A stretch of DNA of 63,092 nucleotides, filler included, from Tortispora ganteri (taxonomy: Eukaryota), in the NCBI GenBank assembly GCA_003707115.1. It is 27 parts of 27 records of this genome, joined end to end, with 100 filler letters (N's around TTAATTAATTAA, not from the genome) between each part and the next. Parts side by side here need not be neighbours in the genome. Positions count along the whole stretch, not along the records: positions 5,419 to 7,967 come from PPNB01000123.1; 26 more parts are not named here. One strand, written 5' to 3'. Under the pieces are notes generated by a model. It did not search any database. It saw only the letters and a program-made list of their open reading frames with translations, and was not told where the DNA came from. The translations under genes were made by a program, and so were the position numbers. Below, in pieces: positions 4,725-59,130 of this stretch; position 1 is the stretch's first letter, and every line of letters begins with the position of its first letter.

Positions 4725-4906
4725 ACAAAAAAGTTCCTACAAAGAGTCACTGTCGTTTAGAAGAAAATTGAGTATTTTGACAATACCCAAAGTAGGGTTG
4801 TGCCAATTTCAACTAATGATGTGAAATGTTGGCATAGCAACTACATCTCCCAGTTCCTTTTCGATCTTTACTGGATAATCTGTTTTGAGGCTAGGCGTTC
4901 AAAAAA

Positions 4907-5318
4907 ATGAAGGATATGAATATTGTTGTAATAGGCATGGCTGGTAGCGGCAAAACGTCGTTTGTGCGTGCATTTTACAAATACTGCAAGCGCCAGAAGG
5001 AATCGTGCTATACGATCAACCTTGATCCGGCAGTGACTTCGACACCATACAAATGCAACATTGATATTCGTGATTCGGTTAACTATAAGAAAGTCATGGA
5101 AGAATACCGTCTCGGTCCTAACGGTGCTATTATGACGTCGTTAAATTTATTCACTACAAAGATTGATCAAGTTGTTTCAATAGTGGAGAAGAAGAAGGGC
5201 TACGTCATTGTTGACACCCCGGGACAAATCGAGGCATTCATATGGTCAGCAACAGGTCCGATCGTCACAGAAGCGCTTGCAACGGCGCATCCGACAGTTG
5301 TCGTGTACGTTATCGACA
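4907..5318 (+). CDS. NPA3: GPN-loop GTPase Npa3/Gpn1 (3' truncated)
   Basis: GMAGSGKT, NLDPAV, IDIRDSVNYKKVMEEY.LGPNGAIMTSLNLF, DTPGQIE.F.WSA.G. Confidence 0.93.
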
Positions 5319-5947
5319 NNNNNNNNNNNNNNNNNNNNNNNNNNNNNNNNNNNNNNNNNNNNTTAATTAATTAANNNNNNNNNNNNNNNNNNNNNNNNNN
5401 NNNNNNNNNNNNNNNNNNTCAAGACCACTAAACGACGTTAATTCATTGTAAAGCTTTATATGACGATAAACATCAATATTTTATAGTGATTCAGTAGCAC
5501 CCGGAACGAGCTTTTCGAATTTCGCTAAGGTTATAAGTTGACGTGATATTGTTGTCATTCTTGTACTTTTATAGCTCCAGCACTGCGCCTTGTTTTTATA
5601 ATAGCGACCTCAAGAGGCTTCTATATCAAATGCGCCAAGATAGCTAAAATTTGTCACTTGATAGTCAAGAGACACAGACGATATGAATCCATCCATGTTA
5701 TTGTTTAGCGCTATCATGGACTCGATATCTAAGTAAGGGTGGCGGGGGTTTTTATATATATTGAATTACCATTTCGGGACGTCACGTGCTTTCTACATAC
5801 TCCCATTCCGAACTGTCCCAATCGGGAAATTTCTTAAACTCTATCTTACCCATCTAATCTCCGCTATCGCCGAGATTAGTCTCCATTCCCCTTCAATTCT
5901 CTCTCTCTACTCCCGTCCCCACACTCCTTGAAACGATCAATTTATAA

Positions 5948-7967
5948 CTACAAATATATACTATATGGGAGAGTTTCAAACGAAATCCTAAACGGGGCCA
6001 CCCTTTCACCGTAGAACACAAATCGCAATGGCGTCCACCCCTCCGACAATGGCATATCAATAAACCAAGTGTCCCCTGACTTCGATGAGTACACGCCTTT
6101 CCATCCACCGCTTCCGATTGCCTCTATGTCCCCGCACCTCATCCCGCTTTCCCCAACAAACATATACGCTAAGAAGAAAGGGTACCCATAGGCTTCCATT
6201 ATCCGGTTCGGTCCCTGAACATATCCCAGCGCCTCCCACACTGTATTGACCTTATTGTAGTTGATATCTAGAATAGTCCCAGAAAATTGCACCTCAACCT
6301 CACTAGAATTCCCCACCCGATACTTCCCATCGGCTACCTCCGTTTCATTGTACTCCCTAAGGTCCACCGCCCACCCTCTTGCCAGTAGCGTCTGCGACGG
6401 TTTGCACGGGCAAGCATTGGACACCACTCCGCAGCTGCTGCTACTCGAGGCGCTAGAACTCCACTGAGCTGAGCTGGATACGCTCGAACTGACACTCGAA
6501 CTGGGACTTGAACTTGAACTCGAACTCAAACTAGAACTCAAACTAGAACTCAAACTAGAACTCAGACTAGAACTCAAACTAGAACTCAGACTAGAACTCA
6601 AACTAGAACTAGAACTAGAACTAGAACTCAAACTAGAACTAGAACTAGAACTAGAACTAGAACTAGAACTAGAACTAGAACTAGAACTAGAACTAGAACT
6701 AGAACTAGAACTAGAACTAGAACTAGAACTAGAACTAGAACTAGAACTAGAACTAGAACTAGAACTAGAACTCAAACTAGAACTAGAACTCAGACTAGAA
6801 CTCAGACTAGAACTGGAACTCAAACTAGAACTCAGACTAGAACTCAAACTAGAACTCAGACTAGAACTCAAACTAGAACTAGAACTAGAACTAGAACTCA
6901 AACTAGAACTAGAACTAGAACTCAAACTAGAACTCGAACTCAGACTAGAACTAGAACTAGGACTCAGACTAGAACTAGGATTAACTGGCTCTGGTGATCC
7001 ACTTGCAGAACCATATACTGAAATAGTTATTGTCTCGCCGCTGATCGTAGTGAACATCACACTCACAGTCACAATGACTCCGCCCTGACGCTTGAATTGA
7101 CCCGCCAATCCAAAGCCCGCAACAGGAATCACTATACGAATTGGGAACAAATATCCACCGTCAAAGTCCACCGGAAAACTTGCCTTGAACCCATTCGAAC
7201 TGTCCAGAGAGCCAGTCCCAGAAGTCCCAGAAGTGCCAATAAGCTCCATGTTATCGCACCGCATGGCCAATTCACCCTCGTACACGTACGCATAAGTATC
7301 TGCAAAGTTACTAGCATCCTTTGCCTGTACATCTACAAACCCAACGTCGCCTGATGGTTCAACGTAAAACAAGTACTCAAAATAGCCCTGTTCCGATACT
7401 GATGCCAATATAGAGTTTGACGAAACTCTCGCGGTCACATTGTCTCGTTGGTAGTTCCTGTACTCACCGTTCTGGATATCGCTCGACGACAAGTCTACCG
7501 CACCCTCGAATATAGCGGCAAATACTTCGCCTGCCCTGTAGGCAGGTCTGGTTGAGCATGCGTCTGCAGGCACTGTCGTGTGGGCTGTCGTTGGAACAGT
7601 TACTGTAGCTGTGGTGGGTGGCGTAGCGGGGTGCGTAGGCGGACGCCGAGGTACTATAGTCTCCGTGATAATAACTGGAATCTCAATAGAAACGTGCACG
7701 TCAACCGACACGGACATAGACACGGACTCGTAGTATGACCAGACATAGGTACAGTCGTCTTTGACGACCGGCGGACTAGGTACATAGGTCACCGTAGCGG
7801 GTGTGCATTGGTTGCAGTACCAGCCTGAAACTGTAGACACATAAGGCGCGCATTGGTCGTCGTAGACAGTCGCACGTGTAGTACCAGACTCAGAAGTATA
7901 CAAACGTCCGTAGACAGTAGAAGTTTCAACAGGTGGGCTGCAAATGAGCGTGTTCGTTTCCACGATA
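5948..7967 (-). CDS. Putative adhesin/cell-surface protein, subfamily A copy 1 (5' truncated): Cys-rich module, PA14/GLEYA-like domain 1, poly-Ser stalk, variable domain 2
   Basis: CSPP...GWYCNQC...PP..DCTYVWSYYE module; domain 1 ends FPIRIV and domain 2 has WTPLRFV (compare the YYPIRI motif of PA14/GLEYA adhesins); (AGTTCT)n stalk; no GPI-type hydrophobic tail. The domain assignment is by motif only. Confidence 0.75.
6500..6980. repeat. Coding microsatellite (AGTTCT)n with AGTTTG interruptions (poly-Ser/SSSL)
   Basis: Hexamer tandem repeat. Longer or shorter versions are at about 33210-34040 and 38440-38785. Confidence 0.95.
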
Positions 7968-8067: not shown

Positions 8068-9734
8068 GATGACACTACAGACGAGGTAGAGCCAGAGGAT
8101 GACGCTGAGTTAGACGACGCTGATCCAGACGATGACACTACAGACGAGGTAGAGCCAGATGACGCAGAGCCAGATGAAGCAGATCCAGATGACGCTGATC
8201 CAGATGACGCTGAGTTAGACGACGCTGAGCCAGAGGATGACGCTGAGTTAGACGACGCTGAGTTAGACGACGCTGAGTTAGACGACGCTGAGTTAGACGA
8301 CGCTGATTCAGACGAGGCAGATCCAGACGAGGAAGAGCCAGAGGATGACGCTGAGTTAGACGAGGCAGATCCAGAGGAGACAGAGCCAGAGGATGACGCT
8401 GAGTTAGACGACGCTGATCCAGACGATGCTGATCCAGACGATGACACTACAGACGAGGTAGAGCCAGACGAGGCAGAGCCAGAGGAAGCTGAACCAGAGG
8501 AGACAGAGCCAGAGGATGCTGAGTCAGACGAGGCAGATCCAGAAGACGCAGAGCCAGAGGATGACGCTGAGTCAGACGAGGCAGAGCCAGACGAGGCAGA
8601 GCCAGACGATGACACTACAGACGAGGTAGAGCCAGACGAGGCAGAGCCAGAGGAAGCTGAGCCAGACGACGCTGAGTTAGACGACGCTGAATTAGACGAC
8701 GCTGAGTTAGACGACGCTGAGTTAGACGACGCTGAATTAGACGACGCTGATTCAGACGACGCAGATCCAGACGACACTGAGCCAGACGACGCTGAGTTAG
8801 ACGACGCTGAGTTAGACGACGCTGATTCAGACGAGGCAGATCCAGACGAGGAAGAGCCAGAGGATGACGCTGAGTTAGACGAGGCAGAGCCAGAGGAAGC
8901 TGAGCCAGACGACGCTGAGTTAGACGACGCTGAATTAGACGACGCTGATTCAGACGACGCAGATCCAGACGACACTGAGCCAGACGACGCTGAGCCAAAA
9001 GCAGAATTGGAACCTGTTCCAGAGCTAAAGCTAAAGCTAGACATAGATTCGTCAGATAAGGAAGAGCTCGGCTCAGTAGGCGTAGGGTTAGCCGAAGCAG
9101 ACGTGACAGTTGTGTCAGCTGAAGTTGTAGTTATTAAAGACGAAGCAGATCTAATCTCTGGTGGTAAGACCGAATGAGGTAGAGAAGTGATCGTACGTGA
9201 TCCGGCTGCCGGAGGCAGCAGTGTTCCGGAAGGAGGAATTGTAGTTGTTATTATCACGGGTACTTCAATAGAGATATCTATATCTATCCTTATTGATATA
9301 GATACTTCCTCATAGTAAGACCAGACATAGGTACAGTCATTAGTGACTAGAGGAGGAGAAGGGATACAGGATATAACAGTAGGAACGCACTGATTGCAAT
9401 ACCAACCTGTCGGGATAGTTTGATAGGGTGAGCATGAGTGATCATAAGCAGTTACCGGTGTAGCTTCAGGGACACCGCCTGCACCACCTGCAGTACCACC
9501 AGAAAAGACATTAGTGTATCCGAAATCATTTGGATTTCCAGAGTCAGAGGCGTGAGAGGTGTATCCACGTCCATAGACTGTCGTGGTAGTGACAACAGGA
9601 GGATCGCAGACCAGGGTCTGCCACTCGGTGACGGTGCTCCATACGACGTTCTGCTCTTCCGGAATAGCTAGGGCTGCGGGATCTGCAGCCGGATGGGCTG
9701 CGCGCGCAGCGAGTGCATTCCACAAGTGAGGCAT
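8068..9734 (-). CDS. Family member with Cys-rich N-terminal module and SSGSA/SSNSA pentapeptide repeats (3' truncated)
   Basis: LVCDPPVVTTTTVYGR...GWYCNQC.P....PSPPLVTNDCTYVWSYYE followed by 15-bp tandem repeats. An in-frame TGA lies upstream of the ATG. Confidence 0.75.
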
Positions 9735-10715
9735 AAGTCGCAGCGTACAGAGATAACGACGGATATGTTTTCAGTATCGATTGAAGTTGTTGCTTTGCCG
9801 AGTAGAAGAGGATGTCAATAGTACTAAAAATGATTAAGTGGCATTATCCGGCGAAAGCTATTCTTATAAGAGAGATAGAAAGTAAAATGACACTAGCAAC
9901 TGAGAGAACGCCATTGCTCCAGTAGCTCGTAGCAGAACGATTAGTACGAAACTATAATCTGTTCGATTAAAGCTTATTATTAAATAACTAGTACTAGTGG
10001 AAAGGTGCTAATGTACAAGCCAAAAATAGTAGTAGCAAAAGCTACATAGCTGGCTGTTCGCCGGGAATATTATTTTAGAATAATTAAATAAGCACGGCCA
10101 TTTGAAAAGTATTTATACTGTAATTGGTGTGCTAAAAGTGGAGTTTAGCTGCGAATTTGTAGAAAAAATAGTCATACACGTCGCCACAATGTCAAAAGGT
10201 GAAGCGAGAAAGCGTGACAGTAGTAGTGCATCCGTGGCATTAAAGCGTCATTGGCCAGCACATAAAATAGAAATAATTTGAACCTTATACGTAATAAGGT
10301 TATTTTTGAAAATAGACAGCCACGAAATAATATATAATTTGAAGCTTATAAGTTAAAAGGTTCCTTAAAAAAGTAGAATAGAGTTTGACTGTGCTAACTA
10401 CGTAAAAGGTTTAGACGGGTGGGCATGGCAACGGTACTAATTTTAGACTGCACAGATGCGACCACCATTAAGTAGAAGCGGGCTGCTTAAATTAAAAATG
10501 CATGAATTCAAAGCCTCTATCGCGTAGAATCGGAAAAAAAAGAAAATCAAGTCCATATGATTCTAGTATAAGGACAATTTATTTTTCTGGTGATATAATC
10601 TAAACAAACTCTTATNNNNNNNNNNNNNNNNNNNNNNNNNNNNNNNNNNNNNNNNNNNNTTAATTAATTAANNNNNNNNNNNNNNNNNNNNNNNNNNNNN
10701 NNNNNNNNNNNNNNN

Positions 10716-20845: not shown

Positions 20846-21447
20846 ACCTTCGATCGGATCGATCGTCTCTGATTGGTCGATCTAAAACTTTAACCTTCGA
20901 TCGGATCGATCGTCTCTGATTGGTCGATCTAAAACTTTAACCTTCGATCGGATCGATCGTCTCTGATTGGTCGATTTAAAAGCTTAACCTTCGATCGGAT
21001 CGATTGTCTCTGATTGGTCGATCCAAAAGCTTAACCTTCGATCGGATCGATCGTCTCTGATTGGTCGATTTAAAAGCTTAACCTTCGATCGGATCGATTG
21101 TCTCTGATTGGTCGATCCAAAAGCTTAACCTTCGATCGAATCGATCGTCTCTGATTGGTCGATCCAAAAGCTTAACCTTCGATCGGATCGATCGCCTCTG
21201 ATTGGTCGATCCAAAAGCTTAACCTTCGATCGGATCGATCATTTTTTATTGCTCGATCCAAAAGCTTAACTTTCGATCGGATCGATTATCTCTTATTGGT
21301 CGATCCAAAAGCTTAACTTTCGATCGGATCGATTACCTCTGATTGGTCGATCTAAAAGCTTAACTTTCGATCGGATCGATTACCTCTGATTGGTCGATCT
21401 AAAAGCTTAACTTTCGATCGGATCGATTACCTCTGATTGGTCGATTT
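20846..21447. repeat. 47-bp tandem array (about 13 units)
   Basis: Unit ACCTTCGATCGGATCGATCGTCTCTGATTGGTCGATCTAAAACTTTA, starting at 20846, 20893, 20940 and so on. Confidence 0.97.
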
Positions 21448-23218: not shown

Positions 23219-23318
23219 NNNNNNNNNNNNNNNNNNNNNNNNNNNNNNNNNNNNNNNNNNNNTTAATTAATTAANNNNNNNNNNNNNNNNNNNNNNNNNN
23301 NNNNNNNNNNNNNNNNNN

Positions 23319-25681
23319 CAATACTAGAACTTAGTGCATTACTTGAAGCAGTAGAAATAACTGAGCCGGATGTAACACTAGAACTTGCAGTCAAACTCGA
23401 AGATCCGGGGCCTACTGATGAGCCTGGTACAACACTAGAGCCGGGTACAGCCGAAGATCCTGATATAACACTAGAGCTGGATGCAGCTGAAGATCCTGAA
23501 GCAGCCGAAAATCCTGAAGCAGCTGAAGATCCTGAAGCAGCTGAAGATCCCGAAGCAGCTGAAGATCCTGAAGCAGCTGAAGATCCCGAAGCAGCTGAAG
23601 ATCCTGAAGCAGCTGAAGATCCTGAAGCAGCCGAAGATCCTGACGCAGCCGAAGATCCTGATAAAACACTAGAGCCGGGTGCAGCTGAAGATCCTGACGC
23701 AGCCGAAGATCCTGATACAACACCAGAGCTGGGTGCAGCCGAAGATCCTGATAAAACACTAGAGCTGGGTACAGCTGAAGATCCTGATACAACACTGGAG
23801 CTGGGTGCAGCTGAGGATCCTGACGCAGCCGAAGATCCTGATAAAACACGAGAGCCGGGTGCAGCCGAAGATCCTGATACAGTCGAAGATCCTGATAAAA
23901 CACTAGAGCTGGGTGCAGCCGAAGATCCTGATAAAACACTAGAGCTGGGTACAGCTGAGGATCCTGACGCAGCTGAAGATCCTGATACAACACTGGAGCT
24001 GGGTGCAGCTGAGGATCCTGACGCAGCCGAAGATCCTGATACAACACTGGAGCTGGGTGCAGCTGAGGATCCTGACGCAGCCGAAGATCCTGATAAAACA
24101 CTAGAGCCGGGTACAGCCGAAGATCCTGACGCAGCTGAAGATCCTGATACAACACTAGATCTGGGTGCAGCTGAGGATCCTGACGCAACTGAGGAGCTAG
24201 AGGCTGCTGAGGATCCGGCTGCTGCACTTGAGGCAGAAGAAAGTTGACTAGTGCTAGAATTTCCATATGAGCTCCGTCCAAAACTGGATTTCAGTGCAGT
24301 GCTAGAGGCAGATGCAATTGCTGGAGAAGATAATGTGGTTGGAACGGAAGTCACGCTAGAGCTTGAGGCGAGACTCGAGCTCGGTGCGGTAGAAAAACTG
24401 GGAGAAGCTGAAGATCCCGAGCCGATGCTAGAGTCGGAAGCTGCAGACGACTCGAAAGCAATAGAGGATCTAGATGCAATTGAGCTAGCAGCACCTAAAG
24501 AACTGGAAACAATAGTAGATCCTGAGGCACCTGAGCTAGGTGCAGTTGAAGAGCTAGAAACAACAGATGATCCTGAGGCAACTGAGCTAGGTGCAGTTGA
24601 AGAGCTAGAAACAACAGATGATCCTGAGGCAACTGAGCTAGGTGCAATTGAAGAACTGGAAACAGCAGATGATCCTGAGGCTATTGGGCTAGGTGCAATT
24701 GAAGAGCTAAAAACAACTGATGATCCCGAGGCTATTGGGCTAGGTGCAATTGAAGAGCTAAAAACAACTGATGATCCCGAGGCAACTGAGCTGGGTGCAA
24801 TTGAAGAGCTAAAAACACCAGATGAACCTGAGGCAACTGAGCTAGGTGCAATTGAAGAGCTAGAAACAACAGAAGACTCCGGAAAAACACTAGATTCCGA
24901 TATAATCGATAGGGCTGAACTAACTGAAGGAATAGGATTAACCGGCTCAGGTGATCCACTTGTAGAAGCAGACACAGATATGGATATTGTCTCGCCACTA
25001 GTAGTAGTGAACACAATACTCACGGTCACGGAAACCCCAGCTTGACGCTTGAATTGACCCGCCGATCCAAAGCCCGCAACAGGAATGACTATACGGATTG
25101 GGTACAAGAACCCACCGGCAAAGTCGACCGGAAAACTTGCCTTGAACCCATTCGAACTGTCCAGAGGGGCAGTGGCAGAAGAGCCAGAAGAACCAATAAG
25201 ATCCATGTTATCGCACCGCATAGCCAATTCGCCATCAAAGAGGTATGCGTAAGTATCTGCAAAGTTACTAGGATCCTGTCCCTGTACATCTACAAACGCA
25301 ACGTCGGCTGATGGTTCAAGGTAGAAAAGGTACTCGACATAGCCCTGTTCGGATACTGATGCCGATATAGAGTTTGACGAGACTGTAGCGGCCACATTGT
25401 CTCGTTGGTAGTTCCTGTACTCACCGTTCTGGATATCGCTCGACGACAAGTCTACTGCGCTCTCGTATATAGCGGCAAATACTTTGCCTGCGCTGTAAGC
25501 AGCAGTAGTTGAGCATGCGTCTGCAGGCACAGTCGTGGGAGCTGTCGTTGGAACAGTTACTGTAGCTGTAGTGGGTGGCGTAGCGGGGTGAGTAGGCGGA
25601 GGCGTAGGTGCTATAGTCTCCGTGATAATGACTGGAATCTCAATAGAGACGTGCACGTCAACCGACACGGACATGGACACG
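23319..25681 (-). CDS. Family member: PA14/GLEYA-like domain 1 followed by SGSS repeats (both ends truncated; continues into 13303)
   Basis: Domain nearly identical to domain 1 of 5948-7967 (NGEYRNYQRDNV, AMRCDNM, YPIRIVIPVAGFG..GQFKRQ). Confidence 0.8.
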
Positions 25682-29499: not shown

Positions 29500-30546
29500 C
29501 TAAACGTTTTTGGGTACAGGTGTAATATCAGAAGACCCCTGAACACTAATAGTGGTATCAAATCTCAGCAGAGTTTTAAACTGACCCAGTAAATACATAT
29601 TTTTGTCAGCTTGCTCTACTGATACATAACGCAAAGGATACCATAAATCAGCTTCCACATTAATTTTAAGTTCTGCACTTCCGGAACCACCTAGTGGCAT
29701 AACCACGTAACTCATTTTTGCCGTGGTATTTATACCACCTTCTCCTATTGCTCTCATATCTTTGCACGACATAGCTGAACCACCTAGGTATAAGTAACTA
29801 TCATGGTAATACTCCATAAGAGGATTTATAAGACTAGTTGTTCTGCTATGCACCGTTATGATATTGCATACGCCATTAGTTCTTATATAGAACAAAGTCT
29901 CAGATATTATAACTGCAGGAGACGATATTCTAGTGGAATATGACAGCGAGGTGGAATCAATGTGTAGATTTGACCGAGTGGCATTTAATTTCCTGTATTC
30001 TCCGTTAGCAAAATATGCATCGTCCCATTCCCTAGATGGCGTGGAATAATTCGCAAAGAAAGCCACGCCTTGAGTGTGGTTTAGTGAGCTGCACGTGGTC
30101 TCAGGAAGTAGAGAAGAAGACGGAATGTAGACACTCGAGCTCGAAGCTGCAGAAGATGAACTGACATCACTCGTACTAACGGTGGTCGATGAAGGAGGAG
30201 AAATCGAAATAATACTTGACTGGACAGAAGAGCTAGGTAAAAGTGAGGAACTAGGATCAATAGAGGAACTAGGATCAATAGAGGAACTAGGTTCTAATAT
30301 CGATATAGTGCTAGAGCTAGTAGAAATACTAGAAGTGATGAGAGAACTGTTCGAGTAATGATTAGCAGATGAAGATAACGCCGAAACTGAACTATCTTCA
30401 GTAGATATCTGAGTGGATGATACTGTCGATAGTGAATTCGAACTCTCTGAAGATAAACTCTGAAAAAGAGAAGAAGAAGCCGAGGAAGACGACTGGAATA
30501 TAGGAGCAATGCTGCCGGTTGCTAAAGATGTAGGTTTATTAGACGA
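29500..30546 (-). CDS. Subfamily B adhesin-like gene, 3' part with variable PA14/GLEYA-like domain
   Basis: Frame open from the contig end at 30546 to the stop at 29500; NGEYR, ETLFYI, DSYLYLGGSAMSC..M..IG, LWYPLRYV. Confidence 0.75.
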   Translation of the reverse strand, partial: SSNKPTSLATGSIAPIFQSSSSASSSLFQSLSSESSNSLSTVSSTQISTEDSSVSALSSSANHYSNSSLITSSISTSSSTISILEPSSSIDPSSSIDPSSSLLPSSSVQSSIISISPPSSTTVSTSDVSSSSAASSSSVYIPSSSLLPETTCSSLNHTQGVAFFANYSTPSREWDDAYFANGEYRKLNATRSNLHIDSTSLSYSTRISSPAVIISETLFYIRTNGVCNIITVHSRTTSLINPLMEYYHDSYLYLGGSAMSCKDMRAIGEGGINTTAKMSYVVMPLGGSGSAELKINVEADLWYPLRYVSVEQADKNMYLLGQFKTLLRFDTTISVQGSSDITPVPKNV

Positions 30547-31444: not shown

Positions 31445-32957
31445 CTAATCGTTTTTTGGTACAGGATCAATATCAGAAGACCCCTGAACACTAATAGTAG
31501 TATCAAATTCCAGCAGAGTTATATACCGATTCCCTGAATAGATATCACCACTATCGTACTCTACTGATACATAACGCAAAGGATACCATAAACCAGCTTC
31601 CATAGTACTGTCAAGTTGTGCATTTATGGAACTACCAAATATTAGAGAAATCCGTACACTAATTTTTGCCATGCTAGTTGTACCACCTTCTCCTATTGCT
31701 CTCATATCTTTGCACGACATAGCTGAACCACCTAGGTATAAGTAACTATCGTGGGTATACATCACATCAGGATTTGCAGAGCTATTTACTTTGTTCGTCA
31801 CCGTCATAAAATTTATTCCGCCATTAGTTCTTATATAGAACAAAGTCTCAGATATTATAACTGTAGCATGCGGTACCAGATTGGTATATGACAGCGAAGT
31901 GGAATCAATGTCAAGATTCGACCGAGTGGCATTTAATTTCCTGTATTCTCCATTAGCAAAATATGCATCGTCCCAGTCCCTAGATGGTGTGGAATAAGTC
32001 GCAAAGAAAGCCGCGCCTTGAGTGTAGTTTAGTGAGCTACACGTGGTCTCAGGAAGTAGAGAAGAAGACGGAATGTAGACACTCGAGCTCGAAGCTACCG
32101 AAGATGAACTGATATCACTCGTACTAACAGTAGTCGATAAGGGAGGGGCAATCGAACTAGTACTTGATTGGACAGAAGAGCTAGGTAAAATTGAGGAACT
32201 AGGTTCAATAGATGAACTAGGATCAAAAGATGAACTAGATTCAACAGATGAACTAGATTCAACAGATGAACTAGATTCAATAGATGAACTAGATTCAATA
32301 GATGAACCAGGATCAAAAGATGAACTAGGATCAAAAGACGAACTAGATTCAATAGACGAACTAGGTTCAATAGACGAATTAGGTTCAATAGACGAACTAG
32401 GTTCAATAGACGAACTAGGTTCAATAGACGAACTAGGTTCAATATATGAACTAGGTTCCAATATCGATATAGTGCTAGAGCTAGTAGAAATACTAGAAGT
32501 GATGAGAGAACTGTTCAAGTAATGATTAATAGATGAAAATAACGCCGAAACTGAACTATCTTCAGTAGATATCTGAGTGGATGATATTGTCGATAGTGAA
32601 TTCGAACTCTCTGAAGATAAACCCTGAAATAGAGAAGAAGAAGCAAAGAAAGAAGACTGGAATATAGGAGCAATGCTGCCCGTCGCTAAAGATGTAGGTT
32701 TATTAGACAAAAGCAAAGTAGATCGATATATTGGAGCAACATTAGCAGTAGTGGAAGGAGCAGGAACGGTAGTAGGAATAGTAACGACGATCGGTACTTG
32801 GACACTAACAGTTGCGTCTATAGAAATAGAAACATCAATTTGCTCGTAGTAGCCCCAAACATACGTGTGTTCATTGCTGACAAGTGGAGGTTTTAGTACA
32901 TAAGTGACAACCGTAGGATGACACTCATAACAGTACCAGCCATCAACGTAACTGATA
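31445..32957 (-). CDS. Subfamily B adhesin-like gene (5' truncated) with SSSIEP repeats
   Basis: Paralog of 28219-30546; 18-bp SSS(I/F)(E/D)(P/S) repeats expanded; C-terminal domain with WYPLRYV. Confidence 0.75.
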
Positions 32958-33057: not shown

Positions 33058-34572
33058 ATTCCTGTTGCGGGCTTTGGATCGGCGGGTCAATTCAAGCGTC
33101 AGTCTGGAGTCTTTGTGACCGTGAGTGTGATGTTCACTAGCATCAGTGGCGAGACAATAGCTATTTCAGTATATGGTTCTGCAAGTGGATCACCTGAGCC
33201 AGTTGAGCCTAGTTCTAGTCTGAGTTCTAGTTTGAGTTCTAGCTTTAGTTCTAGTTTGAGTTCTAGTTCTAGTTTGAGTTCTAGTTCTAGTTTGAGTTCT
33301 AGTTTGAGTTCTAGTTTGAGTTCTAGTTTGAGCTCTAGTTTGAGTTCTAGTTCTAGTTTGAGTTCTAGTTTGAGTTCTAGTTTGAGTTCTAGTTCTAGTT
33401 TGAGTTCTAGTTTGAGTTCTAGTTTGAGTTCTAGTTTGAGTTCTAGTTCTAGTTCTAGTTCTAGTTCTAGTTCTAGTTCTAGTTCTAGTTTGAGTTCTAG
33501 TTCTAGTTTGAGTTCTAGTTTGAGTTCTAGTTTGAGTTCTAGTTCTAGTTCTAGTTCTAGTTCTAGTTTGAGTTCTAGTTCTAGTTTGAGTTCTAGTTTG
33601 AGTTCTAGTTTGAGTTCTAGTTTGAGCTCTAGTTTGAGTTCTAGTTCTAGTTTGAGTTCTAGTTTGAGTTCTAGTTCTAGTTCTAGTTCTAGTTCTAGTT
33701 CTAGTTCTAGTTCTAGTTCTAGTTCTAGTTCTAGTTCTAGTTCTAGTTCTAGTTCTAGTTTGAGTTCTAGTTTGAGTTCTAGTTTGAGTTCTAGTTTGAG
33801 CTCTAGTTTGAGTTCTAGTTCTAGTTTGAGTTCTAGTTTGAGTTCTAGTTCTAGTTTGAGTTCTAGTTCTAGTTTGAGTTCTAGTTTGAGTTCTAGTTTG
33901 AGTTCTAGTTTGAGCTCTAGTTTGAGTTCTAGTTCTAGTTTGAGTTCTAGTTTGAGTTCTAGTTCTAGTTCTAGTTCTAGTTCTAGTTCTAGTTCTAGTT
34001 CTAGTTTGAGCTCTAGTTTGAGTTCTAGTTTGAGTTCCAGTCCCAGTTCGAGCGTATCCAGCTCAGCTCAGTGGAGTTCTAGCGCCTCGAGTAGCAGCAG
34101 CTGTGGAGTAGTGTCAAACGCTTGCCTGTGCGCACCGTCGCAAACGCTGCTGGCGCGAGAGTGGGCGGTGGATCTTACACAGTACAATGGAACGGAGGTA
34201 GCCGATGGGAAGTACCGGGTGGGGAATTCCAGAGAGGTTATGGTGAGAATTTCTGGGCCTTATATAAATATCCGCTACAATAATCCGAATGAAGTGACAG
34301 AGGTGCTGGTATATGTTCAGGGACCGAACCGGATAATCTATGTCTTGGGGCTCCCTAACTACTTGGCGTATATGTTTGTTGGGGAAAGTGGGATGAAGTG
34401 CGGGGACATAGAGGCAATCGGAAGTGGTGGATGGAATCTCGTGCACCCATTGAACTCAGGGTCCGTTTGGTTTATTGATCAGCCATTGTCGGAGGGGTGG
34501 ACGCCGATGCGATTTGTGTTCTACAGTGGATCCCAGGGCGGGATTGACATTTATTTCAACTCTAATGTCTAG
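33058..34572 (+). CDS. Subfamily A copy 2 (5' truncated)
   Basis: End of domain 1 (GQFKRQ), long (AGTTCT)n stalk and variable domain 2; the 3' flank is homologous to 5419-5947. Confidence 0.78.
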   Translation: MPVAGFGSAGQFKRQSGVFVTVSVMFTSISGETIAISVYGSASGSPEPVEPSSSLSSSLSSSFSSSLSSSSSLSSSSSLSSSLSSSLSSSLSSSLSSSSSLSSSLSSSLSSSSSLSSSLSSSLSSSLSSSSSSSSSSSSSSSSSLSSSSSLSSSLSSSLSSSSSSSSSSSLSSSSSLSSSLSSSLSSSLSSSLSSSSSLSSSLSSSSSSSSSSSSSSSSSSSSSSSSSSSSSSSLSSSLSSSLSSSLSSSLSSSSSLSSSLSSSSSLSSSSSLSSSLSSSLSSSLSSSLSSSSSLSSSLSSSSSSSSSSSSSSSSSLSSSLSSSLSSSPSSSVSSSAQWSSSASSSSSCGVVSNACLCAPSQTLLAREWAVDLTQYNGTEVADGKYRVGNSREVMVRISGPYINIRYNNPNEVTEVLVYVQGPNRIIYVLGLPNYLAYMFVGESGMKCGDIEAIGSGGWNLVHPLNSGSVWFIDQPLSEGWTPMRFVFYSGSQGGIDIYFNSNV

Positions 34573-34749
34573 TTTATATTTGTAGTTATAAATTGATCGT
34601 TTCAAGGAGTGTGGGGACGAGAGTAGAGAGAGAGAAAAAAAATTGAAGGGGAAAGGAGACTAATCTCGGCGATAGCGGAGATTAGATGAGTAAGATAGAG
34701 TTTAAGGAATTTCCTGATTGGGACAGTCCGAAATGGGAATAATCATAAG

Positions 34750-34822
34750 CACGTGACTCCCCAAAAGGGAAATAAGCACTAGTCACGTGACGCCCCGAAA
34801 TGCAAATTCAATATATATAAAA
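34750..34822 (+). promoter_or_regulatory. Paired E-boxes (GCACGTGAC, GTCACGTGAC) and TATA box
   Basis: CACGTG sites at about 34751 and 34784, TATATAAAA at about 34814. Equivalent motifs lie at 5750-5790 (one E-box) and 37660-37735. GTCACGTGA is the known Cbf1-type site. Confidence 0.5.
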
Positions 34823-35366
34823 CCCCCGCCACCCTTACTTAGATATCGAGTCCATGATAGCGCTAAACAATAACATGGATGGATTCATCTCGTCTGTGTC
34901 TCTTGACTATCAAGTGACAAATTTTAGCCATCTTGGGGCATTTGACATGGAAACCTCTTGATGTCGCTATTATTAAAACAAGGCGCAGCGCTGGAGCTAT
35001 AAAAGTACAGGAATGACAACAAAATCACGTCAACTTATAACCTTAGCGAAATTCGAAAAGCTCGTTTCGGGTGCTACTGAATCACTATAAAATATTGATG
35101 TTTATCGTCATATAAAGCTTTACAATGAATTAACGTCGTTTAGTGGTCTTGAAGGTAGTAATAAACCGAATAAGCATAGTAGCCATGCACAGTTTTTGAG
35201 GCTCTATAGTCATGCATGGTTTTTATGCAATTCGGATATTTACCCTTTTGTGGAAACAACGGCCGANNNNNNNNNNNNNNNNNNNNNNNNNNNNNNNNNN
35301 NNNNNNNNNNTTAATTAATTAANNNNNNNNNNNNNNNNNNNNNNNNNNNNNNNNNNNNNNNNNNNN

Positions 35367-37552: not shown

Positions 37553-37899
37553 NNNNNNNNNNNNNNNNNNNNNNNNNNNNNNNNNNNNNNNNNNNNTTAA
37601 TTAATTAANNNNNNNNNNNNNNNNNNNNNNNNNNNNNNNNNNNNNNNNNNNNGCGGGGGTTTTATATATACTGTATTACCATTTCGGGACATCACGTGAC
37701 TTGTGCTTACTTCCCTTTCGGGAAGTCACGTGCTTGTGTATATTCCCGTCTTGTTTTGTCCCAATCGGGAAATTTCTTAAACTCTATCTTGCCCATCTAA
37801 TCTCCGCTATCGCCGAGATTAGTCTCCATTCCCCTTCAATTCTCTCTACTCCCGTCCCCGCACTCCTTGAAACAATCAATTTATAACTACAAATATAAA

Positions 37900-39795
37900 C
37901 TAGAGAGGAAACTCGAAATGAATGTCAATCAAGCTCCGGGATCCACTGTAGAACACAAATCGCAATGGCGTCCACCCCTCCGACAATAACTCATTAATAC
38001 GCCACTCGGATAGTGCACCGTGAGGGCGCACCACTTTCCATCCACCGCTTCCGATTGCCTCTATGTCCCCGCATCTCATCCCGCTTTCCCCAGCAAACAT
38101 ATACCCCCAGTAGAAGGAACGGTACTTCACATAGACATAGCTAATCACGTTCGGTCCTTGAACATATACCAGCACCTCTGCCCCTGCATTCGGATTATTG
38201 TAGGCGATATGTACACTAGCCGTACTAAAACCGACGATAACCTCTCTGGAATTCCCCACCCGGTACTTCCCATCGGCTACCTCCGTTTCATTGTACTGCC
38301 AAAGATCCACCGCCCACCTTCTTGCCAGCAGCCTCTGTGAAGGTTCGCACTTGCAAGCGTTTGACACCACTCCACAGCTGCTGCTACTCGAGGCGCTAGA
38401 GCTCCACTGAGCTGAGCTGGATACGCTCGAACTGACACTCGAACTGGGACTTGAACTTGAACTCAAACTAGAACTCAAACTAGAACTAGAACTAGAACTC
38501 AAACTAGAACTCAAACTAGAGCTCAAACTAGAGCTCAAACTAGAACTCAAACTAGAACTAGAACTAGAACTCAAACTAGAACTCAGACTAGAACTGGAAC
38601 TCAAACTCGAACTCAGACTAGAACTGGAAATCAAACTAGACCTAGACCTAGAACTCAAACTCAAACTAGGACTAGAACTCAAACTAGAACTCAAACTAGA
38701 ACTCAAACTAGAACTCAAACTCAAACTAGGACTAGAACTAGAACTCAAACTAGGACTAGAACTAGAACTCAAACTAGAACTAGGATCAACTGGCTCAGGT
38801 GATCCACTTGCAGAACCATATACCGAAATAGTTATTGTCTCGCCACTGATGCTAGTGAACATCACACTCACCGTCACAAAGACTCCAGACTGACGCTTGA
38901 ATTGACCCGCCGATCCAAAGCCCGCAACAGGAATCACTATACGGATTGGGAACAAATATCCACCGTCAAAGTCCACCGGAAAACTTGCTTTGAACCCATT
39001 CGAACTGTCCAGAGTGGCAGTCCCAGAAGTCCCAGAAGTACCAATAAGCTCCATGTTATCGCACCGCATGGCCATTTCACCCTCGTACACGTACGCATAA
39101 GTATCTGCAAAGTTACTAGCATCCTTTGCCTGTATATCTACAAACCCAACGTCGCCTGATGGTTCAACGTAAAACAAGTACTCAAAATAGCCCTGTTCCG
39201 ATACTGATGCCAATATAGAGTTTGACGAAACTCTCCCAGTCACATTGTCTCGTTGGTAGTTCCTGTACTCACCGTTCTGGATATCGCTCGACAACAAGTC
39301 TACCGCACCCTCGAATATAGCGGCAAATACTTCACCTGCCCTGTAGGCAGGTCTGGTTGAGCATGCGTCTGCAGGCACTGTCGTGTGGGCTGTCGTTGGA
39401 ACAGTTACTGTAGCTGTGGTGGGTGGCGTAGCGGGGTGCGTAGGCGGACGCGGAGGTACTATAGTCTCCGTGATAATAACTGGAATCTCAATAGAAACGT
39501 GCTCGTCAACCGACACCGACATGGACACGGACTCGTAGTATGACCAGACGTAGGTGCAGTCGTCTTTGACGAGCGGCGGACTAGGTACATAGGTCACCGT
39601 AGCGGGTGTGCACTGGTTGCAGTACCAGCCTGAAACTGTAGACACATGAGGCGCGCATTGATCATCGTAGACGATCGCACGTGTAGCACCAGACTCAGAA
39701 GTGTACAACCGCCCATAGACAGTGGAAGTTTCAATAGGTGGGCTGCAAATGAGCGTGTTCGTTTCTACAATAGTACTGTATATTGTCTGCACCAT
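37900..39795 (-). CDS. Subfamily A copy 3 (apparently complete ORF)
   Basis: ATG at 39795 (MVQTIYSTIVETNTLICSPP) preceded by an in-frame TGA; two PA14/GLEYA-like domains separated by a Ser stalk. Confidence 0.8.
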   Translation of the reverse strand: MVQTIYSTIVETNTLICSPPIETSTVYGRLYTSESGATRAIVYDDQCAPHVSTVSGWYCNQCTPATVTYVPSPPLVKDDCTYVWSYYESVSMSVSVDEHVSIEIPVIITETIVPPRPPTHPATPPTTATVTVPTTAHTTVPADACSTRPAYRAGEVFAAIFEGAVDLLSSDIQNGEYRNYQRDNVTGRVSSNSILASVSEQGYFEYLFYVEPSGDVGFVDIQAKDASNFADTYAYVYEGEMAMRCDNMELIGTSGTSGTATLDSSNGFKASFPVDFDGGYLFPIRIVIPVAGFGSAGQFKRQSGVFVTVSVMFTSISGETITISVYGSASGSPEPVDPSSSLSSSSSPSLSSSSSPSLSLSSSLSSSLSSSLSSSPSLSLSSRSRSSLISSSSLSSSLSSSSSLSSSLSSSSSSSLSSSLSSSLSSSLSSSLSSSSSSSLSSSLSSSSSPSSSVSSSVSSSAQWSSSASSSSSCGVVSNACKCEPSQRLLARRWAVDLWQYNETEVADGKYRVGNSREVIVGFSTASVHIAYNNPNAGAEVLVYVQGPNVISYVYVKYRSFYWGYMFAGESGMRCGDIEAIGSGGWKVVRPHGALSEWRINELLSEGWTPLRFVFYSGSRSLIDIHFEFPL

Positions 39796-57632: not shown

Positions 57633-59130
57633 CTAGACAGGAATAATCATCGCATAGATTTTCGAGTCAAACTTCACAGAGAACGCTACATTACCGAGAG
57701 TAGAAATCTGCGGAGAGGCTACAACACGTATCGGATACCACCCATCCGCTTGAACAAGAGCGAGGTTAAGAGACCAGGTATCGCTACCGCCAGGATTAGA
57801 CGCATTGTACCCTTCAGTGCCAATACTTTGCATGTTTGTACATGTCATAGCATTAGTTCCGACAAAGAGGTAGTACGAATCAGGCAGCATATAGCCAGAA
57901 TCTTCAGTTATATGCGACAACACGTTCTGGCCTTTCACGTAAACTGTCAACTCTATCAAACTTGGAGCGTCGTACGTTACCTCTAATTCATCGGACATGA
58001 CCAGCGAAGTCCTTCGTATAGTTCTCTTGTTCTCTCTGTAGATTCCGTTTGCAATCTCTTCTGCTGAATATGAGCTGATCTGCACGTCTGTATATATATC
58101 AGCACGATAACTCTCGAGAATTCCTGATGGTTGTGAAGTGCAATAGACATCAACAGTTTCAAAAGAGCTAAAAACACTAGTGATGCTAGATGAGCTTTCA
58201 GAACTAGAGACAGCAGAACTTTCAGAGCTAGAGACAGCAGAGCTTTCAGAGCTAGCAGTACTAGAAACATCTGAACTTTCAGAGCTAGATGAGATCTCAG
58301 AATAAGAAGAACTCAATACCTCTGAGCTAACAGAACTTGTAAGACTAAGCGAAGTAGTATGAGTAACCAAGCTGCTTGATTTAGCCGAGTTCACATAGAT
58401 AGATGAGTCCGTTGAACTTGATATAGAATGAGAACTAACATGACTAAAGGAGCTAAATGAAGGTTTAGGATTCACTGAGCTAACTGAGCCTGTAGAACTC
58501 TGTGCTAATTCACCAACGATATCATATTGGCCAGTCATGTCAACAAACATTTGTCCAGCTTGCCGTTTTCTACCAGCCTCAATAGGATGTACAACAACTA
58601 TTCTTATCGGATACCATTGACCGGTGAAATTCAGGGTAATATTCCAACCGCCGTTCAAGTTTCCTTGATATACTTGCCCTCCAGAACCAATCTCTTTTAT
58701 ATCATTGCATGACATTGCAGATTGGCCAATAAATATATATCCATATGAGGTTTCAACAGTGGAAAGAAGCTGTGAAATCTCAAATGTACCACTCGCATAA
58801 AACATTACTTCGATTAAAGGTTGATAAAGCATTTGTTCGACAAGTATTCCAAAACTTTCGATTGATGTATCAATAGGGGTAGATTCAACTGCTCGATACT
58901 CACCATTAGCGATATATTCAAAATCTCTATAATCGGTATAATATGCAGCAGCATATACCACACCAGCAGTGTATGGTGGAATAGAAACACACAGGTCTGA
59001 ATCAAATGATTGTGTTGTAGTTGTAGTACTTGTTGTAGTACTAGTGGGTACACTAGTTGTAGTACTAGTTGTAGTACTAGGGGGCACAATTGTATCAGTT
59101 GAACCAATTGTAGAAGTGACGACGGTCACT
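57633..59130 (-). CDS. Divergent family member (subfamily D) with two PA14/GLEYA-like domains (5' truncated)
   Basis: IANGEYR...FIGQSAMSCNDIKEIG...WYPIRIVV..GRKRQ, Ser stalk, then IANGIYR...FVGTNAMTCTNMQSIG...WYPIRVV. Confidence 0.75.

What the first reader, a model, noticed from the sequence alone, without database searches (positions are those of the whole stretch)
5948..6435. Framework-plus-hypervariable C-terminal domain in adhesin subfamily A: candidate diversifying recognition system
Seen: three copies (5948-6435, 34102-34572, 37900-38380) share near-identical 3' flanks and, where visible, a near-identical domain 1. Within domain 2 they have invariant blocks (CGVVSNAC, WAVDL, TEVADGKYRVGNS, YVQGPN, GESGM.CGDIEAIGSGGW, LSEGWTP.RFVFY) that are almost unchanged even at synonymous sites. 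The segments between differ radically: EVQFSGTILDINYNKVNTVW / MVRISGPYINIRYNNPNEVT / IVGFSTASVHIAYNNPNAGA; KGVYSSKSGDTWFIDMP / NLVHPLNSGSVWFIDQP / KVVRPHGALSEWRINEL; GERVAPFRISF / SGSQGGIDIYF / SGSRSLIDIHF. All frames stay open. Established: in Flo/Epa PA14 adhesins, specificity sits in the loops near DcisD and after YPIRI. Inference: a stalk-displayed binding domain is under strong diversifying selection or segmental gene conversion (ligand repertoire, kin recognition or evasion).
Basis: partly seen in the sequence, partly recalled or inferred. Interest (0 to 1): 0.85.

Follow-up and report, generated by a model that had tools for sequence, protein, structure and literature searches.

The report
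Fast-evolving lectin-like domain in Tortispora yeast
A Tortispora yeast carries a private gene family whose tail domain, shaped like the sugar-binding heads of known yeast adhesins, keeps a fixed scaffold while about a third of its positions are driven to differ between copies.

Summary
The window is 27 small contigs joined by N spacers, and the three copies lie on three of them. The conserved blocks are not all silent-site invariant: 8-13 of about 53 synonymous sites differ.

The organism is a Tortispora yeast; its CysRS is 92% identical to T. caseinolytica. Each protein has an N-terminal Cys-containing module, a PA14/Flo5-like domain, a poly-Ser stalk and a second PA14/Flo5-like domain at the C-terminus. 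AF2 gave pLDDT 90 for that last domain, with VIA Z 10.9 to KpFlo2 and 9-10 to Flo1, Flo5 and Epa.

The family has no Pfam match, no DcisD calcium motif, no signal peptide and no GPI tail. In 1.84 billion representatives only 15 proteins match; the 11 whose source was seen are T. caseinolytica.

My own codon-model test gives whole-domain omega 1.1, with about a third of codons at omega 6-8 (LRT 43.9). The signal survives a free local synonymous rate (LRT 20.9) and removal of the doubtful indel region. Domain 1 shows none.

Relatedness among copies switches along the domain. Read-derived contigs indicate many more copies. Verdict: a new, unusually strongly diversifying variant of the yeast PA14 adhesin-domain theme. 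Surface display is inferred, not shown.

The parts
5948..7967 (-). Copy A gene, 5' end cut by the contig end. N-terminal Cys module about 7562-7966; PA14-like domain 1 6983-7576; poly-Ser(Leu) stalk about 6470-6982; PA14-like domain 2 5951-6433; stop 5948-5950.
5951..6433 (-). Domain 2 of copy A (161 aa). Framework blocks: 6302-6433, 6200-6235, 6101-6169, 6011-6043. Variable segments: V1 6236-6301, V2 6170-6199 (CBL1 equivalent), V3 6044-6100, V4 5972-6010 (CBL2 equivalent).
5419..5947 (-). Conserved 3' flank of copy A (5.4% different from B), with a CACGTGAC box and a TATA-like run.
33058..34572 (+). Copy B gene, 5' end cut by the contig end. Tail of domain 1 33058-33204; stalk to about 34065; domain 2 34102-34569; stop 34570-34572.
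34573..35266 (+). Conserved 3' flank of copy B.
37900..39795 (-). Copy C gene, apparently complete, with in-frame stops upstream. ATG at 39793-39795; N-terminal module to about 39367; domain 1 38788-39381; stalk; domain 2 37903-38376; stop 37900-37902.
37653..37899 (-). Conserved 3' flank of copy C.
23319..25681 (-). A further family member. Its domain 1 is 80% identical to that of copy A and is followed by a different Ser/Ala/Gly stalk. Used as the third sequence in the domain-1 control.
29500..30546 (-). Subfamily B member (contig 12): stalk plus a single C-terminal PA14-like domain. The N-terminus of another member starts 720 bp downstream (28219-28758), so the two are in tandem.
31445..32957 (-). 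Subfamily B member (contig 13). Its C-terminal domain compared with contig 12 gives dN 0.221 and dS 0.142.
57633..59130 (-). Another two-domain family member (contig 25).

Best explanation
The three copies are diverged members of a multigene family that is so far seen only in Tortispora. They are most likely paralogues, though two of them could be alleles.

Each protein is built from four parts:
- an N-terminal module of about 110 aa with conserved cysteines;
- a PA14/Flo5-like beta-sandwich (domain 1);
- a long poly-Ser(Leu) stalk;
- a second PA14/Flo5-like beta-sandwich (domain 2) at the very C-terminus.

Domain 2 keeps its hydrophobic core, its cysteines and a conserved loop block (G-E-S-G-M-x-C ... 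I-G-S-G-G-W and W-T-P-x-R-F-V). About one third of its codons are under strong positive, diversifying selection. These are alternate, presumably outward-facing residues of several strands, plus the two loops that in Flo/Epa/Cea1 hold the calcium and the sugar.

Variant segments also appear to be reshuffled between family members by short-tract recombination or gene conversion.

The likely outcome is a repertoire of binding heads with different specificities held on a common scaffold. Because the DcisD motif is absent, these heads probably bind without the Flo/Epa-type calcium site.

Shown here: the fold, the family limits, the mosaic, dN much greater than dS, and the absence of the motifs. Inferred: ligand binding, cell-surface location, and the biological purpose (ligand repertoire, kin or mate recognition, or escape from something that uses the domain as a receptor).
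For: Fold
- AF2 model of domain 2: pLDDT 90.1, pTM 0.86.
- VIA Z 10.9 to KpFlo2 (rmsd 3.2 over 149 of 161 residues), then Flo1, Flo5, Epa and Cea1. 24 of the top 26 rows are fungal adhesin A domains.
- Domain 1 gives the same matches: Z 11.4 to KpFlo2.
- The family profile's only PDB sequence hits are Cea1, Epa1 and Epa6: 10 of 10 at E<=10, best E 0.12.

Selection (my own implementation of the codon models)
- M0 omega is 1.10 over 163 codons. M2a against M1a gives LRT 43.9 (p 3e-10), with 37% of codons at omega 6.5.
- With a free synonymous rate for the fast class, LRT is 20.9 (p 5e-6), omega 8.5 and relative rate 0.78.
- In 16 simulations under that null the largest LRT was 4.5.
- Without the indel-bearing segment V2, the two LRTs are 23.9 and 40.0.
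- In the variable segments, differences at codon positions 1 and 2 (0.33-0.59) exceed those at position 3 (0.22-0.39) in 3 of 3 pairs. The framework blocks show the reverse.
- Control: domain 1 of the same genes has omega 0.36 and LRT 0.
- Upstream A-C comparison: dN 0.025, dS 0.114.
- Independent replicate in subfamily B: domain dN/dS 1.55 against 0.45 in the stalk.

Exposure
- The 43 of 163 sites with P>0.95 lie at alternate strand positions (47/49/51, 62/64/66, 115/117/119, 149/151/153).

Mosaic
- The odd-one-out labels are clustered along the domain: 0 of 10,000 permutations reached the observed value.
- V3 is closest between A and B, while V4 is closest between B and C.

Repertoire
- 107 and 93 read-derived contigs were laid on 1,062 bases, with up to 14 contigs carrying an alternative letter at one place.
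- Summed depth is highest on the framework blocks and lowest on the variable segments.

Conservation across species
- T. caseinolytica P0004 shares 59 of the 90 framework columns, but matches any of the three copies at only 24 of the 73 variable columns.
Against: - Only three sequences entered the site models. The naive posteriors for single sites are over-confident.
- The codon models are my own code, not codeml or HyPhy. I checked them only against one real control and 16 simulations.
- Nei-Gojobori dS in the variable segments is raised in two of three pairs: 0.54 for A-C and 0.35 for B-C, against 0.17-0.19 in the framework.
- The contigs are tiny pieces of a repeat-rich assembly, and no read-derived contig spans the stretch. 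The particular combination of segments in each copy, and hence the mosaic signal, could be partly an assembly chimera.
- No signal peptide: the maximum 9-aa Kyte-Doolittle mean is <=1.58 in the first 40 residues of 12 of 12 members.
- No C-terminal hydrophobic GPI signal.
- No DcisD motif in 0 of 21 aligned domains.
- No Pfam PA14 or GLEYA hit even at E<=1.
- Adhesin function, secretion and sugar binding are therefore unproven.
- Foldseek alone gave only E 4e-4 and TM 0.5-0.58, with unrelated beta-sandwiches (CBM11, tailspikes, Bd1399) at similar E-values.
Confidence: 0.7

Rival explanations
1. There is no positive selection. The variable segments are simply unconstrained and older. The framework and flanks have been homogenised by gene conversion, so the contrast is between young converted blocks and old neutral blocks.
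For: - Nei-Gojobori dS in the variable segments is 0.54 (A-C) and 0.35 (B-C), against 0.17-0.19 in the framework.
- Blocks F3 and F4 are as alike as the flanks: 0-9% nt difference against 5-11%.
- Relatedness switches along the domain.
Against: - A model that gives the fast class omega=1 and its own rate fits much worse than one with free omega: LRT 20.9, or 23.9 without V2. The fitted synonymous rate of the fast class is not raised (0.78 and 0.32).
- Simulations under exactly this rival gave a maximum LRT of 4.5 in 16 runs.
- Codon positions 1 and 2 differ more than position 3 in the variable segments, the opposite of neutral decay.
- For A-B the variable-segment dS (0.16) is lower than the framework dS (0.30), while dN is 0.47.
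Confidence: 0.1
2. This is an assembly artefact. The contigs are chimeric paths through a collapsed multi-copy family, so the copies as printed, and the mosaic between them, do not exist on single chromosomes.
For: - The window consists of the 1.9-2.6 kb tail contigs of a fragmented assembly.
- Framework blocks of 33-69 nt are nearly identical between copies.
- Many family contigs pile up on them in two runs, and no listed piece spans the 1,062 bases.
Against: - All three frames are open across every junction, and every segment aligns in register.
- Read-derived contigs at 99% likeness or more exist: 27 in X1 and 25 in X2.
- The dN/dS signal compares homologous segments column by column, so it does not depend on which segments are linked.
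- At most, chimerism would undercut the recombination evidence.
Confidence: 0.15
3. Two or all of the copies are alleles of one locus kept by balancing selection in a heterozygous diploid, rather than paralogues.
For: - The assembly holds haplotype-like duplicates: the CysRS contigs are 99.0% identical over 2,114 bp, and contigs 18 and 20 are 98.5% identical over 2,095 bp.
- The three copies share their 3' flank.
Against: - Three forms are one too many for a diploid locus.
- Their flanks differ by 5-11%, against 1-1.5% for the haplotype-like pairs.
- Up to 14 variant contigs cover one framework position in the reads.
- Family members lie in tandem on contig 12.
Confidence: 0.15
4. The family is not a cell-surface adhesin at all. 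It is an intracellular, or unconventionally exported, recognition protein that merely re-uses the PA14 fold.
For: - 12 of 12 members examined start a few residues before the conserved N-terminal module and have no hydrophobic leader.
- An in-frame stop lies 7 codons upstream of the start on contig 12, and stops lie upstream in copy C.
- There is no GPI signal and no DcisD motif.
Against: - Long poly-Ser stalks, conserved cysteines at the domain edges, and the closest folds all being wall adhesin heads point to the secretory pathway.
- A short 5' exon with a signal peptide cannot be excluded from DNA alone.
Confidence: 0.25

Closest known systems
PA14/Flo5-like fungal adhesin A domains: KpFlo2 (6HOS) and Cea1 (5A3L) of Komagataella, Flo1/Flo5/Lg-Flo1 of Saccharomyces, Epa1/6/9 of Candida glabrata
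   Same: - Same beta-sandwich fold: Z 8.2-10.9 over about 150 of 161 residues for domain 2, and Z 8.5-11.4 for domain 1.
- Shared sequence landmarks: G..A..C after the CBL1 strand, and (W/Y)YP.R.V before CBL2.
- A Ser-rich stalk.
- Variability is concentrated where those adhesins have CBL1 and CBL2. The review PMC8621652 (passages read) calls the CBL2 motif site a hypervariable region.
   Different: - No Pfam PA14 or GLEYA match.
- The DcisD motif is replaced by FF, NY and FY in copies A, B and C, and is absent in 0 of 21 family domains.
- The CBL2 Asn is replaced by G or S.
- The domain is internal and C-terminal instead of N-terminal, and there are two per protein.
- No signal peptide and no GPI signal. 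PMC6218569 and PMC8621652 (passages read) list these as standard features.
- The variable residues also cover the faces of beta-strands, not only loops.
GLEYA-domain adhesins without a GPI anchor (fission-yeast type; Linder and Gustafsson 2008, known to me only through the citing passage in PMC8621652, and from recall)
   Same: - A lectin-like PA14-type head, a repeat region and no GPI attachment signal.
- From recall, the head is C-terminal.
   Different: [quoted passage not shown] This family does neither.
- The G(M/L)(E/A/N/Q)YA motif occurs in only 1 of 20 family proteins.
Hil (Hyr/Iff-like) adhesin family of Candida auris (bioRxiv 10.1101/2022.02.09.479577; passages read)
   Same: A yeast adhesin family that expanded by duplication, with gene conversion between members and signs of positive selection in the effector domain.
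   Different: - A different fold (beta-helix).
- There, M2a against M1a was not significant and domain-wide dN/dS was not above 1.
- Here, M2a against M1a gives LRT 43.9 and the domain-wide omega is about 1.1.
Tortispora caseinolytica NRRL Y-17796 hypothetical proteins (CANCADRAFT_3135, _3403, _1284, _31982, _67677 and others)
   Same: - The only sequence relatives found: 15 of 1.84 billion representatives at E<=0.001. The 10 looked up, plus P0004, are from this species.
- Same N-terminal module, same domain type and same stalks.
   Different: - Unannotated and not studied. A search for Tortispora plus adhesin found 0 papers.
- The nearest one, P0004, is only 47% identical in domain 2, while a housekeeping enzyme is 92% identical.

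Membership tests
PA14/Flo5-like fungal adhesin A domain (Flo/Epa/Cea) | PA14-type beta-sandwich fold | tested here: met
   - Domain 2 model: pLDDT 90.1; VIA Z 10.9 (KpFlo2), 10.1 (Flo1), 9.8 (Flo5), 9.4 (Epa9), covering residues 4-161.
- Domain 1: Z 11.4 (KpFlo2) and 10.2 (Flo1).
PA14/Flo5-like fungal adhesin A domain (Flo/Epa/Cea) | Match to Pfam PA14 (PF07691) or GLEYA (PF10528) | tested here: not met
   0 families at E<=1 for the three copies.
PA14/Flo5-like fungal adhesin A domain (Flo/Epa/Cea) | DcisD motif in calcium-binding loop 1 | tested here: not met
   - The DD of Cea1 aligns to FF, NY and FY in copies A, B and C.
- 0 of 21 aligned family domains have DD there; at most a single D is present.
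- The profile-to-Cea1 alignment itself is weak (E 0.12).
PA14/Flo5-like fungal adhesin A domain (Flo/Epa/Cea) | Asn in calcium-binding loop 2 after the YP.R.V strand | tested here: not met
   The aligned residue is G, S and S in copies A, B and C. The anchor motif P.R.V is invariant, so the register is fairly safe.
GPI-anchored yeast wall adhesin architecture | N-terminal signal peptide followed by an N-terminal ligand domain | tested here: not met
   - Maximum 9-aa hydropathy is <=1.58 in the first 40 residues of 12 of 12 members.
- In-frame stops lie upstream.
- The ligand-type domains are internal and C-terminal.
- An unseen 5' exon is not excluded.
GPI-anchored yeast wall adhesin architecture | C-terminal hydrophobic GPI attachment signal | tested here: not met
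   The proteins end 7-13 residues after the last strand of domain 2, with no hydrophobic tail.
GPI-anchored yeast wall adhesin architecture | Ser/Thr-rich low-complexity stalk of variable length | tested here: met
   Poly-Ser(Leu) tracts differ in length among A, B and C.
GLEYA adhesins without GPI anchor (fission-yeast type) | G(M/L)(E/A/N/Q)YA motif and a signal peptide | tested here: not met
   The motif occurs in 1 of 20 family proteins. There is no signal peptide.
Gene family under diversifying selection (site class with dN/dS>1) | Significant site class with omega>1, robust to variation in the synonymous rate | tested here: met
   LRT 43.9, 20.9, 23.9 and 40.0, null simulations and a negative control. 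Three sequences only, with my own code.
Gene family under diversifying selection (site class with dN/dS>1) | Selected residues clustered on one exposed face of the fold | not testable with these tools
Only the alternation of selected sites within strands could be read.

The most novel reading that the evidence does not exclude
Tortispora yeasts have evolved a private, recombining repertoire of calcium-independent PA14-fold recognition heads. These sit on proteins that lack both a classical signal peptide and a GPI anchor. The repertoire would work like an immune-type or self/non-self (kin, mating or anti-parasite) recognition system: a fixed scaffold, a third of the codons under strong diversifying selection, and segment shuffling among dozens of copies. 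Export or anchoring would be through the unexplained N-terminal Cys module.
Probability: 0.2. Interest if true: 0.8.

Novelty: new variant of a known kind. Interest (0 to 1): 0.6.

Why it matters
Yeast adhesin families are the textbook case of fast-evolving surface genes. Clear site-level evidence for positive selection in their binding heads is nevertheless scarce: in the Hil family the conservative M2a test was not significant.

Here a lineage-restricted family with the PA14/Flo5 fold has a whole-domain omega near 1, with a third of codons at omega 6-8. The sister domain in the same protein is under ordinary purifying selection.

The family also breaks three rules of the class: it has no DcisD calcium site, no signal peptide and no GPI anchor.

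If the heads bind different ligands, the family offers a natural library on one scaffold for studying how PA14 lectin specificity is re-written. It also offers a test case for how non-pathogenic yeasts use variable surface repertoires.

Tried and rejected
- Pfam scan of five family proteins: no relevant hit. The only one was a Hexapep hit at E 0.025 in a Ser-rich tract, which I take as chance.
- ESM Atlas search with the N-terminal module: no usable hit.
- AF2 on the N-terminal module plus domain 1: the module came out below pLDDT 50-58, so its fold stays unknown.
- Earlier findings of this scan: nothing for this genome, nothing by sequence, and only unrelated notes by words.
- No whole genome is held for the window, so copy number and chromosomal position could not be examined.
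- Search for a signal-peptide exon upstream of two family genes. On contig 4 there is a 16-codon leader-like ORF (MAFSQLL...) in frame with the gene, but it is separated from it by four stops and has no GT..AG pair that would join them. I rejected it as evidence. Contig 12 has nothing comparable.
- Runs X3-X6 hold next to none of the sampled words, and Logan contigs leave 6247-6282 uncovered. Neither is evidence of anything.
- The summed depths were not used as copy numbers.
- I considered a targeted-mutagenesis mechanism (a DGR-like template). tblastn of domain 2 of copy A against the window found only the three subfamily-A copies plus seven weak (23-30% identity) matches to other family domains, with no template-like close copy. 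With 63 kb of fragments this cannot be tested.
- The literature search for Tortispora plus adhesin found 0 papers.
- Supplementary alignments of PMC6218569 (Figure S1) were not consulted.
Full report
**What the window is.**
The 63,092 bases are not one locus. They are 27 contigs of 2,646 down to 1,879 bp, sorted by size and joined by N44 + TTAATTAATTAA + N44. No whole genome is held for the window.

A cysteinyl-tRNA synthetase on contig 2 is 92% identical to that of Tortispora caseinolytica NRRL Y-17796. The next best hit is 54%. The organism is therefore a Tortispora yeast close to, but distinct from, that strain.

The same synthetase gene occurs twice, on contigs 2 and 11, at 99.0% identity over 2,114 bp. 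Contigs 18 and 20 are 98.5% identical over 2,095 bp. The assembly thus contains haplotype-like duplicates, and its short contigs are enriched in repeated gene families.

**Checking the observation.**
The three reported copies are real open frames on three separate contigs:
- Copy A: 5948-7967 on the minus strand, with its 5' end cut by the contig end.
- Copy B: 33058-34572 on the plus strand, also cut at its 5' end.
- Copy C: 37900-39795 on the minus strand, with stops upstream of its ATG.

Domain 1 and the N-terminal part of A and C are 95% identical in protein. The C-terminal domains are only 63-68% identical.

Of 163 columns, 90 are invariant, and these fall in four blocks that alternate with four segments, V1 to V4, that differ radically.

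The 3' flanks begin to match directly after the stop codons. They differ at 29 of 539 bases (A-B), 18 of 212 (A-C) and 27 of 245 (B-C).

One sub-claim needs correction. Only two blocks are nearly unchanged at the DNA level:
- GESGM.CGDIEAIGSGGW has 3-6 differences in 69 nt.
- EGWTP.RFVFY has 0-2 differences in 33 nt.

Over all invariant-residue blocks, 8-13 of about 53 synonymous sites differ.

**What the gene encodes.**
The architecture has four parts:
- an N-terminal module of about 110 aa with four conserved cysteines;
- domain 1;
- a poly-Ser(Leu) stalk of variable length;
- domain 2, followed by the stop codon.

Domains 1 and 2 are distant homologues of each other. They are also related to single or double domains on at least seven other contigs of the window.

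Pfam finds nothing at E<=1. A profile of the domain, searched against 1.84 billion representative proteins, finds only 15 proteins at E<=0.001. The 10 that I looked up, and the first hit P0004, are all 'hypothetical protein' records of T. caseinolytica. A literature search for Tortispora plus adhesin gave 0 papers.

**Fold.**
With a 21-sequence alignment, AlphaFold2 gives domain 2 of copy A a mean pLDDT of 90.1 and pTM 0.86.

Foldseek alone is modest. Its best hits are Epa1, Epa9 and Cea1 at E 4e-4 to 3e-3 and TM 0.5-0.58, with unrelated beta-sandwiches (CBM11, phage tailspikes, Bd1399) at similar E-values.

Re-alignment with VIA-align separates them clearly:

| Match | Z |
|---|---|
| KpFlo2 (rmsd 3.2, 149 residues aligned) | 10.9 |
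| Flo1 | 10.1 |
| Lg-Flo1 | 10.0 |
| Flo5 | 9.8 |
| Epa9 | 9.4 |
| Cea1 | 8.6 |

Of the top 26 rows, 24 are fungal adhesin A domains. The other two are the RetS sensor domain. Generic PA14 inserts of glycosidases follow at Z below 8.

Domain 1 gives the same list, with KpFlo2 at Z 11.4. That second model is only moderately confident (pLDDT 77-88 in domain 1), and its N-terminal module is unresolved at pLDDT below 58.

The family profile's only PDB sequence matches are Cea1, Epa1 and Epa6: 10 of 10 at E<=10, best E 0.12. These are individually insignificant but agree with the fold.

**How it differs from Flo/Epa adhesins.**
The profile-to-Cea1 alignment puts Cea1's DcisD pair opposite FF, NY and FY in copies A, B and C. 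None of the 21 aligned family domains has DD there. The loop-2 asparagine is G or S.

The papers I read in passages name the hallmarks of the class (PMC6218569; PMC8621652):
- DcisD plus the CBL2 Asn;
- an N-terminal position behind a signal peptide;
- a GPI anchor.

Here the domains are internal and C-terminal. The first 40 residues of 12 of 12 members have no hydrophobic leader; the maximum 9-residue hydropathy is 1.58. The proteins also end a few residues after the last strand, without a hydrophobic tail.

The fold and some landmarks are therefore shared, but membership in the calcium-lectin, GPI-anchored class fails on every sequence criterion. How, or whether, the proteins reach the surface is open.

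**Is the variability selected?**
Pairwise Nei-Gojobori values for the whole of domain 2:

| Pair | dN | dS |
|---|---|---|
| A-B | 0.219 | 0.222 |
| A-C | 0.290 | 0.358 |
| B-C | 0.209 | 0.259 |

Upstream of the stalk, the A-C comparison gives dN 0.025 and dS 0.114.

I wrote Goldman-Yang-type site models for the three-taxon star tree. The results:
- M0 gives omega 1.10 over 163 codons.
- M2a beats M1a by LRT 43.9 (p 3e-10), with 37% of codons at omega 6.5 and the rest at 0.17.
- A mosaic of old and young segments could mimic this. I therefore compared a model whose fast class is neutral with its own rate against one with free omega. The result was LRT 20.9 (p 5e-6), omega 8.5 and synonymous rate 0.78 of the slow class.
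- Sixteen data sets simulated under that null gave LRTs up to 4.5, with 1 of 16 above 3.84.
- The two-codon indel in V2 is placed differently by two alignments. I repeated both tests without V2 and obtained LRT 23.9 and 40.0.

A model-free check agrees. In the variable segments, codon positions 1 and 2 differ more (0.33-0.59) than position 3 (0.22-0.39) in all three pairs. The framework shows the usual excess at position 3.

The same code applied to domain 1 (copies A and C plus contig 10; 247 codons) gives omega 0.36 and LRT 0.

A second subfamily repeats the pattern. Between contigs 12 and 13, the C-terminal domain has dN 0.221 and dS 0.142, while the stalk has 0.058 and 0.127.

Caveats: there are only three sequences, the code is my own, and the single-site posteriors are naive.

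**Where the selected sites lie.**
43 of 163 codons have posterior above 0.95: 23 in predicted strands, 19 in coil and 1 in a helix.

Inside strands they alternate with conserved hydrophobic residues, for example at 47/49/51, 62/64/66, 115/117/119 and 149/151/153. This is what outward-facing side chains of a sheet would do.

V2 and V4 coincide with the CBL1 and CBL2 positions of Flo/Epa/Cea1. The review calls the CBL2 motif site hypervariable.

The framework is also kept across species. T. caseinolytica P0004 shares 59 of the 90 invariant columns. It matches any of the three copies at only 24 of the 73 variable ones.

**Mosaic and repertoire.**
Which copy is the odd one out changes in runs along the domain. 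There are 128 informative sites, and 0 of 10,000 permutations reached the observed clustering. V3 is closest between A and B (13 of 57 nt differ, against 23-28 for the other pairs). V4 is closest between B and C (8 of 39, against 20-22).

This fits short-tract exchange among family members. Chimeric assembly across the near-identical framework blocks could produce the same picture.

Two public runs of the same coded organism hold the stretch as read-derived contigs:
- 107 and 93 contigs were laid on the 1,062 bases at 80% likeness or more.
- Up to 14 contigs carry an alternative letter at one framework position.
- Summed depth peaks on the framework blocks (for example 4,233-5,596 at 6103-6138) and is lowest on the variable segments (0-5 at 6247-6282 and about 150 at 5959-5994).

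These figures are not copy numbers. They do show that many more than three variants share the scaffold.

On contig 12, the end of one family gene is followed 720 bp later by the start of another, so at least some members lie in tandem.

**Verdict.**

What is new relative to known systems:
- the family itself, which is Tortispora-restricted, unannotated and has no Pfam match;
- the loss of the calcium site, signal peptide and GPI anchor;
- the two-head architecture, with only the distal head diversifying;
- the strength of the selection signal. In the Hil family of Candida auris the conservative M2a test was not significant.

Function, ligand and location remain inferred. I rate this a new variant of a known kind, with interest 0.6.

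Noticed in passing
whole window; spacers e.g. 2647-2746, 5319-5418: The window is 27 small contigs (2,646 down to 1,879 bp) sorted by size and joined by N44+TTAATTAATTAA+N44. Neighbouring features across spacers are not linked.
   Followed up: yes
2747-5318 and 25782-28118: The cysteinyl-tRNA synthetase gene is present twice at 99.0% identity over 2,114 bp, after which the two contigs diverge. These look like two haplotypes of a heterozygous genome, or a very recent duplication.
   Followed up: partly
42198-44303 and 46604-48697: Contigs 18 and 20 are 98.5% identical and carry a single-domain family member. In contig 20 the frame runs 16 codons past the position of the stop in contig 18.
   Followed up: no
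28219-30546: Contig 12 holds the 3' end of one subfamily-B gene, 720 bp of spacer, and the 5' end of another. This is evidence that family members lie head-to-tail in tandem.
   Followed up: partly
5781-5788, 34750-34791, 37693-37732: All 6 CACGTGAC matches in the window lie in the conserved 3' flanks of the three copies (1.2 expected by chance). They sit upstream of a TATATATAAAA run, so this may be a promoter for a downstream gene.
   Followed up: partly
9864-9914 (- strand): A 16-codon signal-peptide-like ORF (MAFSQLLVSFYFLSLL) lies 180 bp upstream of, and in frame with, the family gene on contig 4. It is separated from the gene by four stops, and I could not see a usable splice-site pair.
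   Followed up: partly
39367-39795 (- strand) and equivalents (7562-7966, 28219-28758, 9156-9734): A conserved N-terminal module (T.T..LC.PPV.TTTVY ... GWYC..C.P..VTYV ... YVW.YYE ... IEVPV) starts every family protein. It has no signal peptide, no Pfam or Atlas match, and a low-confidence AF2 model.
   Followed up: partly
20846-21445: A 47-bp tandem repeat with 12.8 copies at 94% match. Contigs 9, 17, 23 and 27 share this repeat family.
   Followed up: no
44352-46551, 8615-8998, 23267-25045: Long ORFs on both strands and in several frames across the Ser/Gly/Ala-rich repeat arrays. These are by-products of the repeats, not genes.
   Followed up: no
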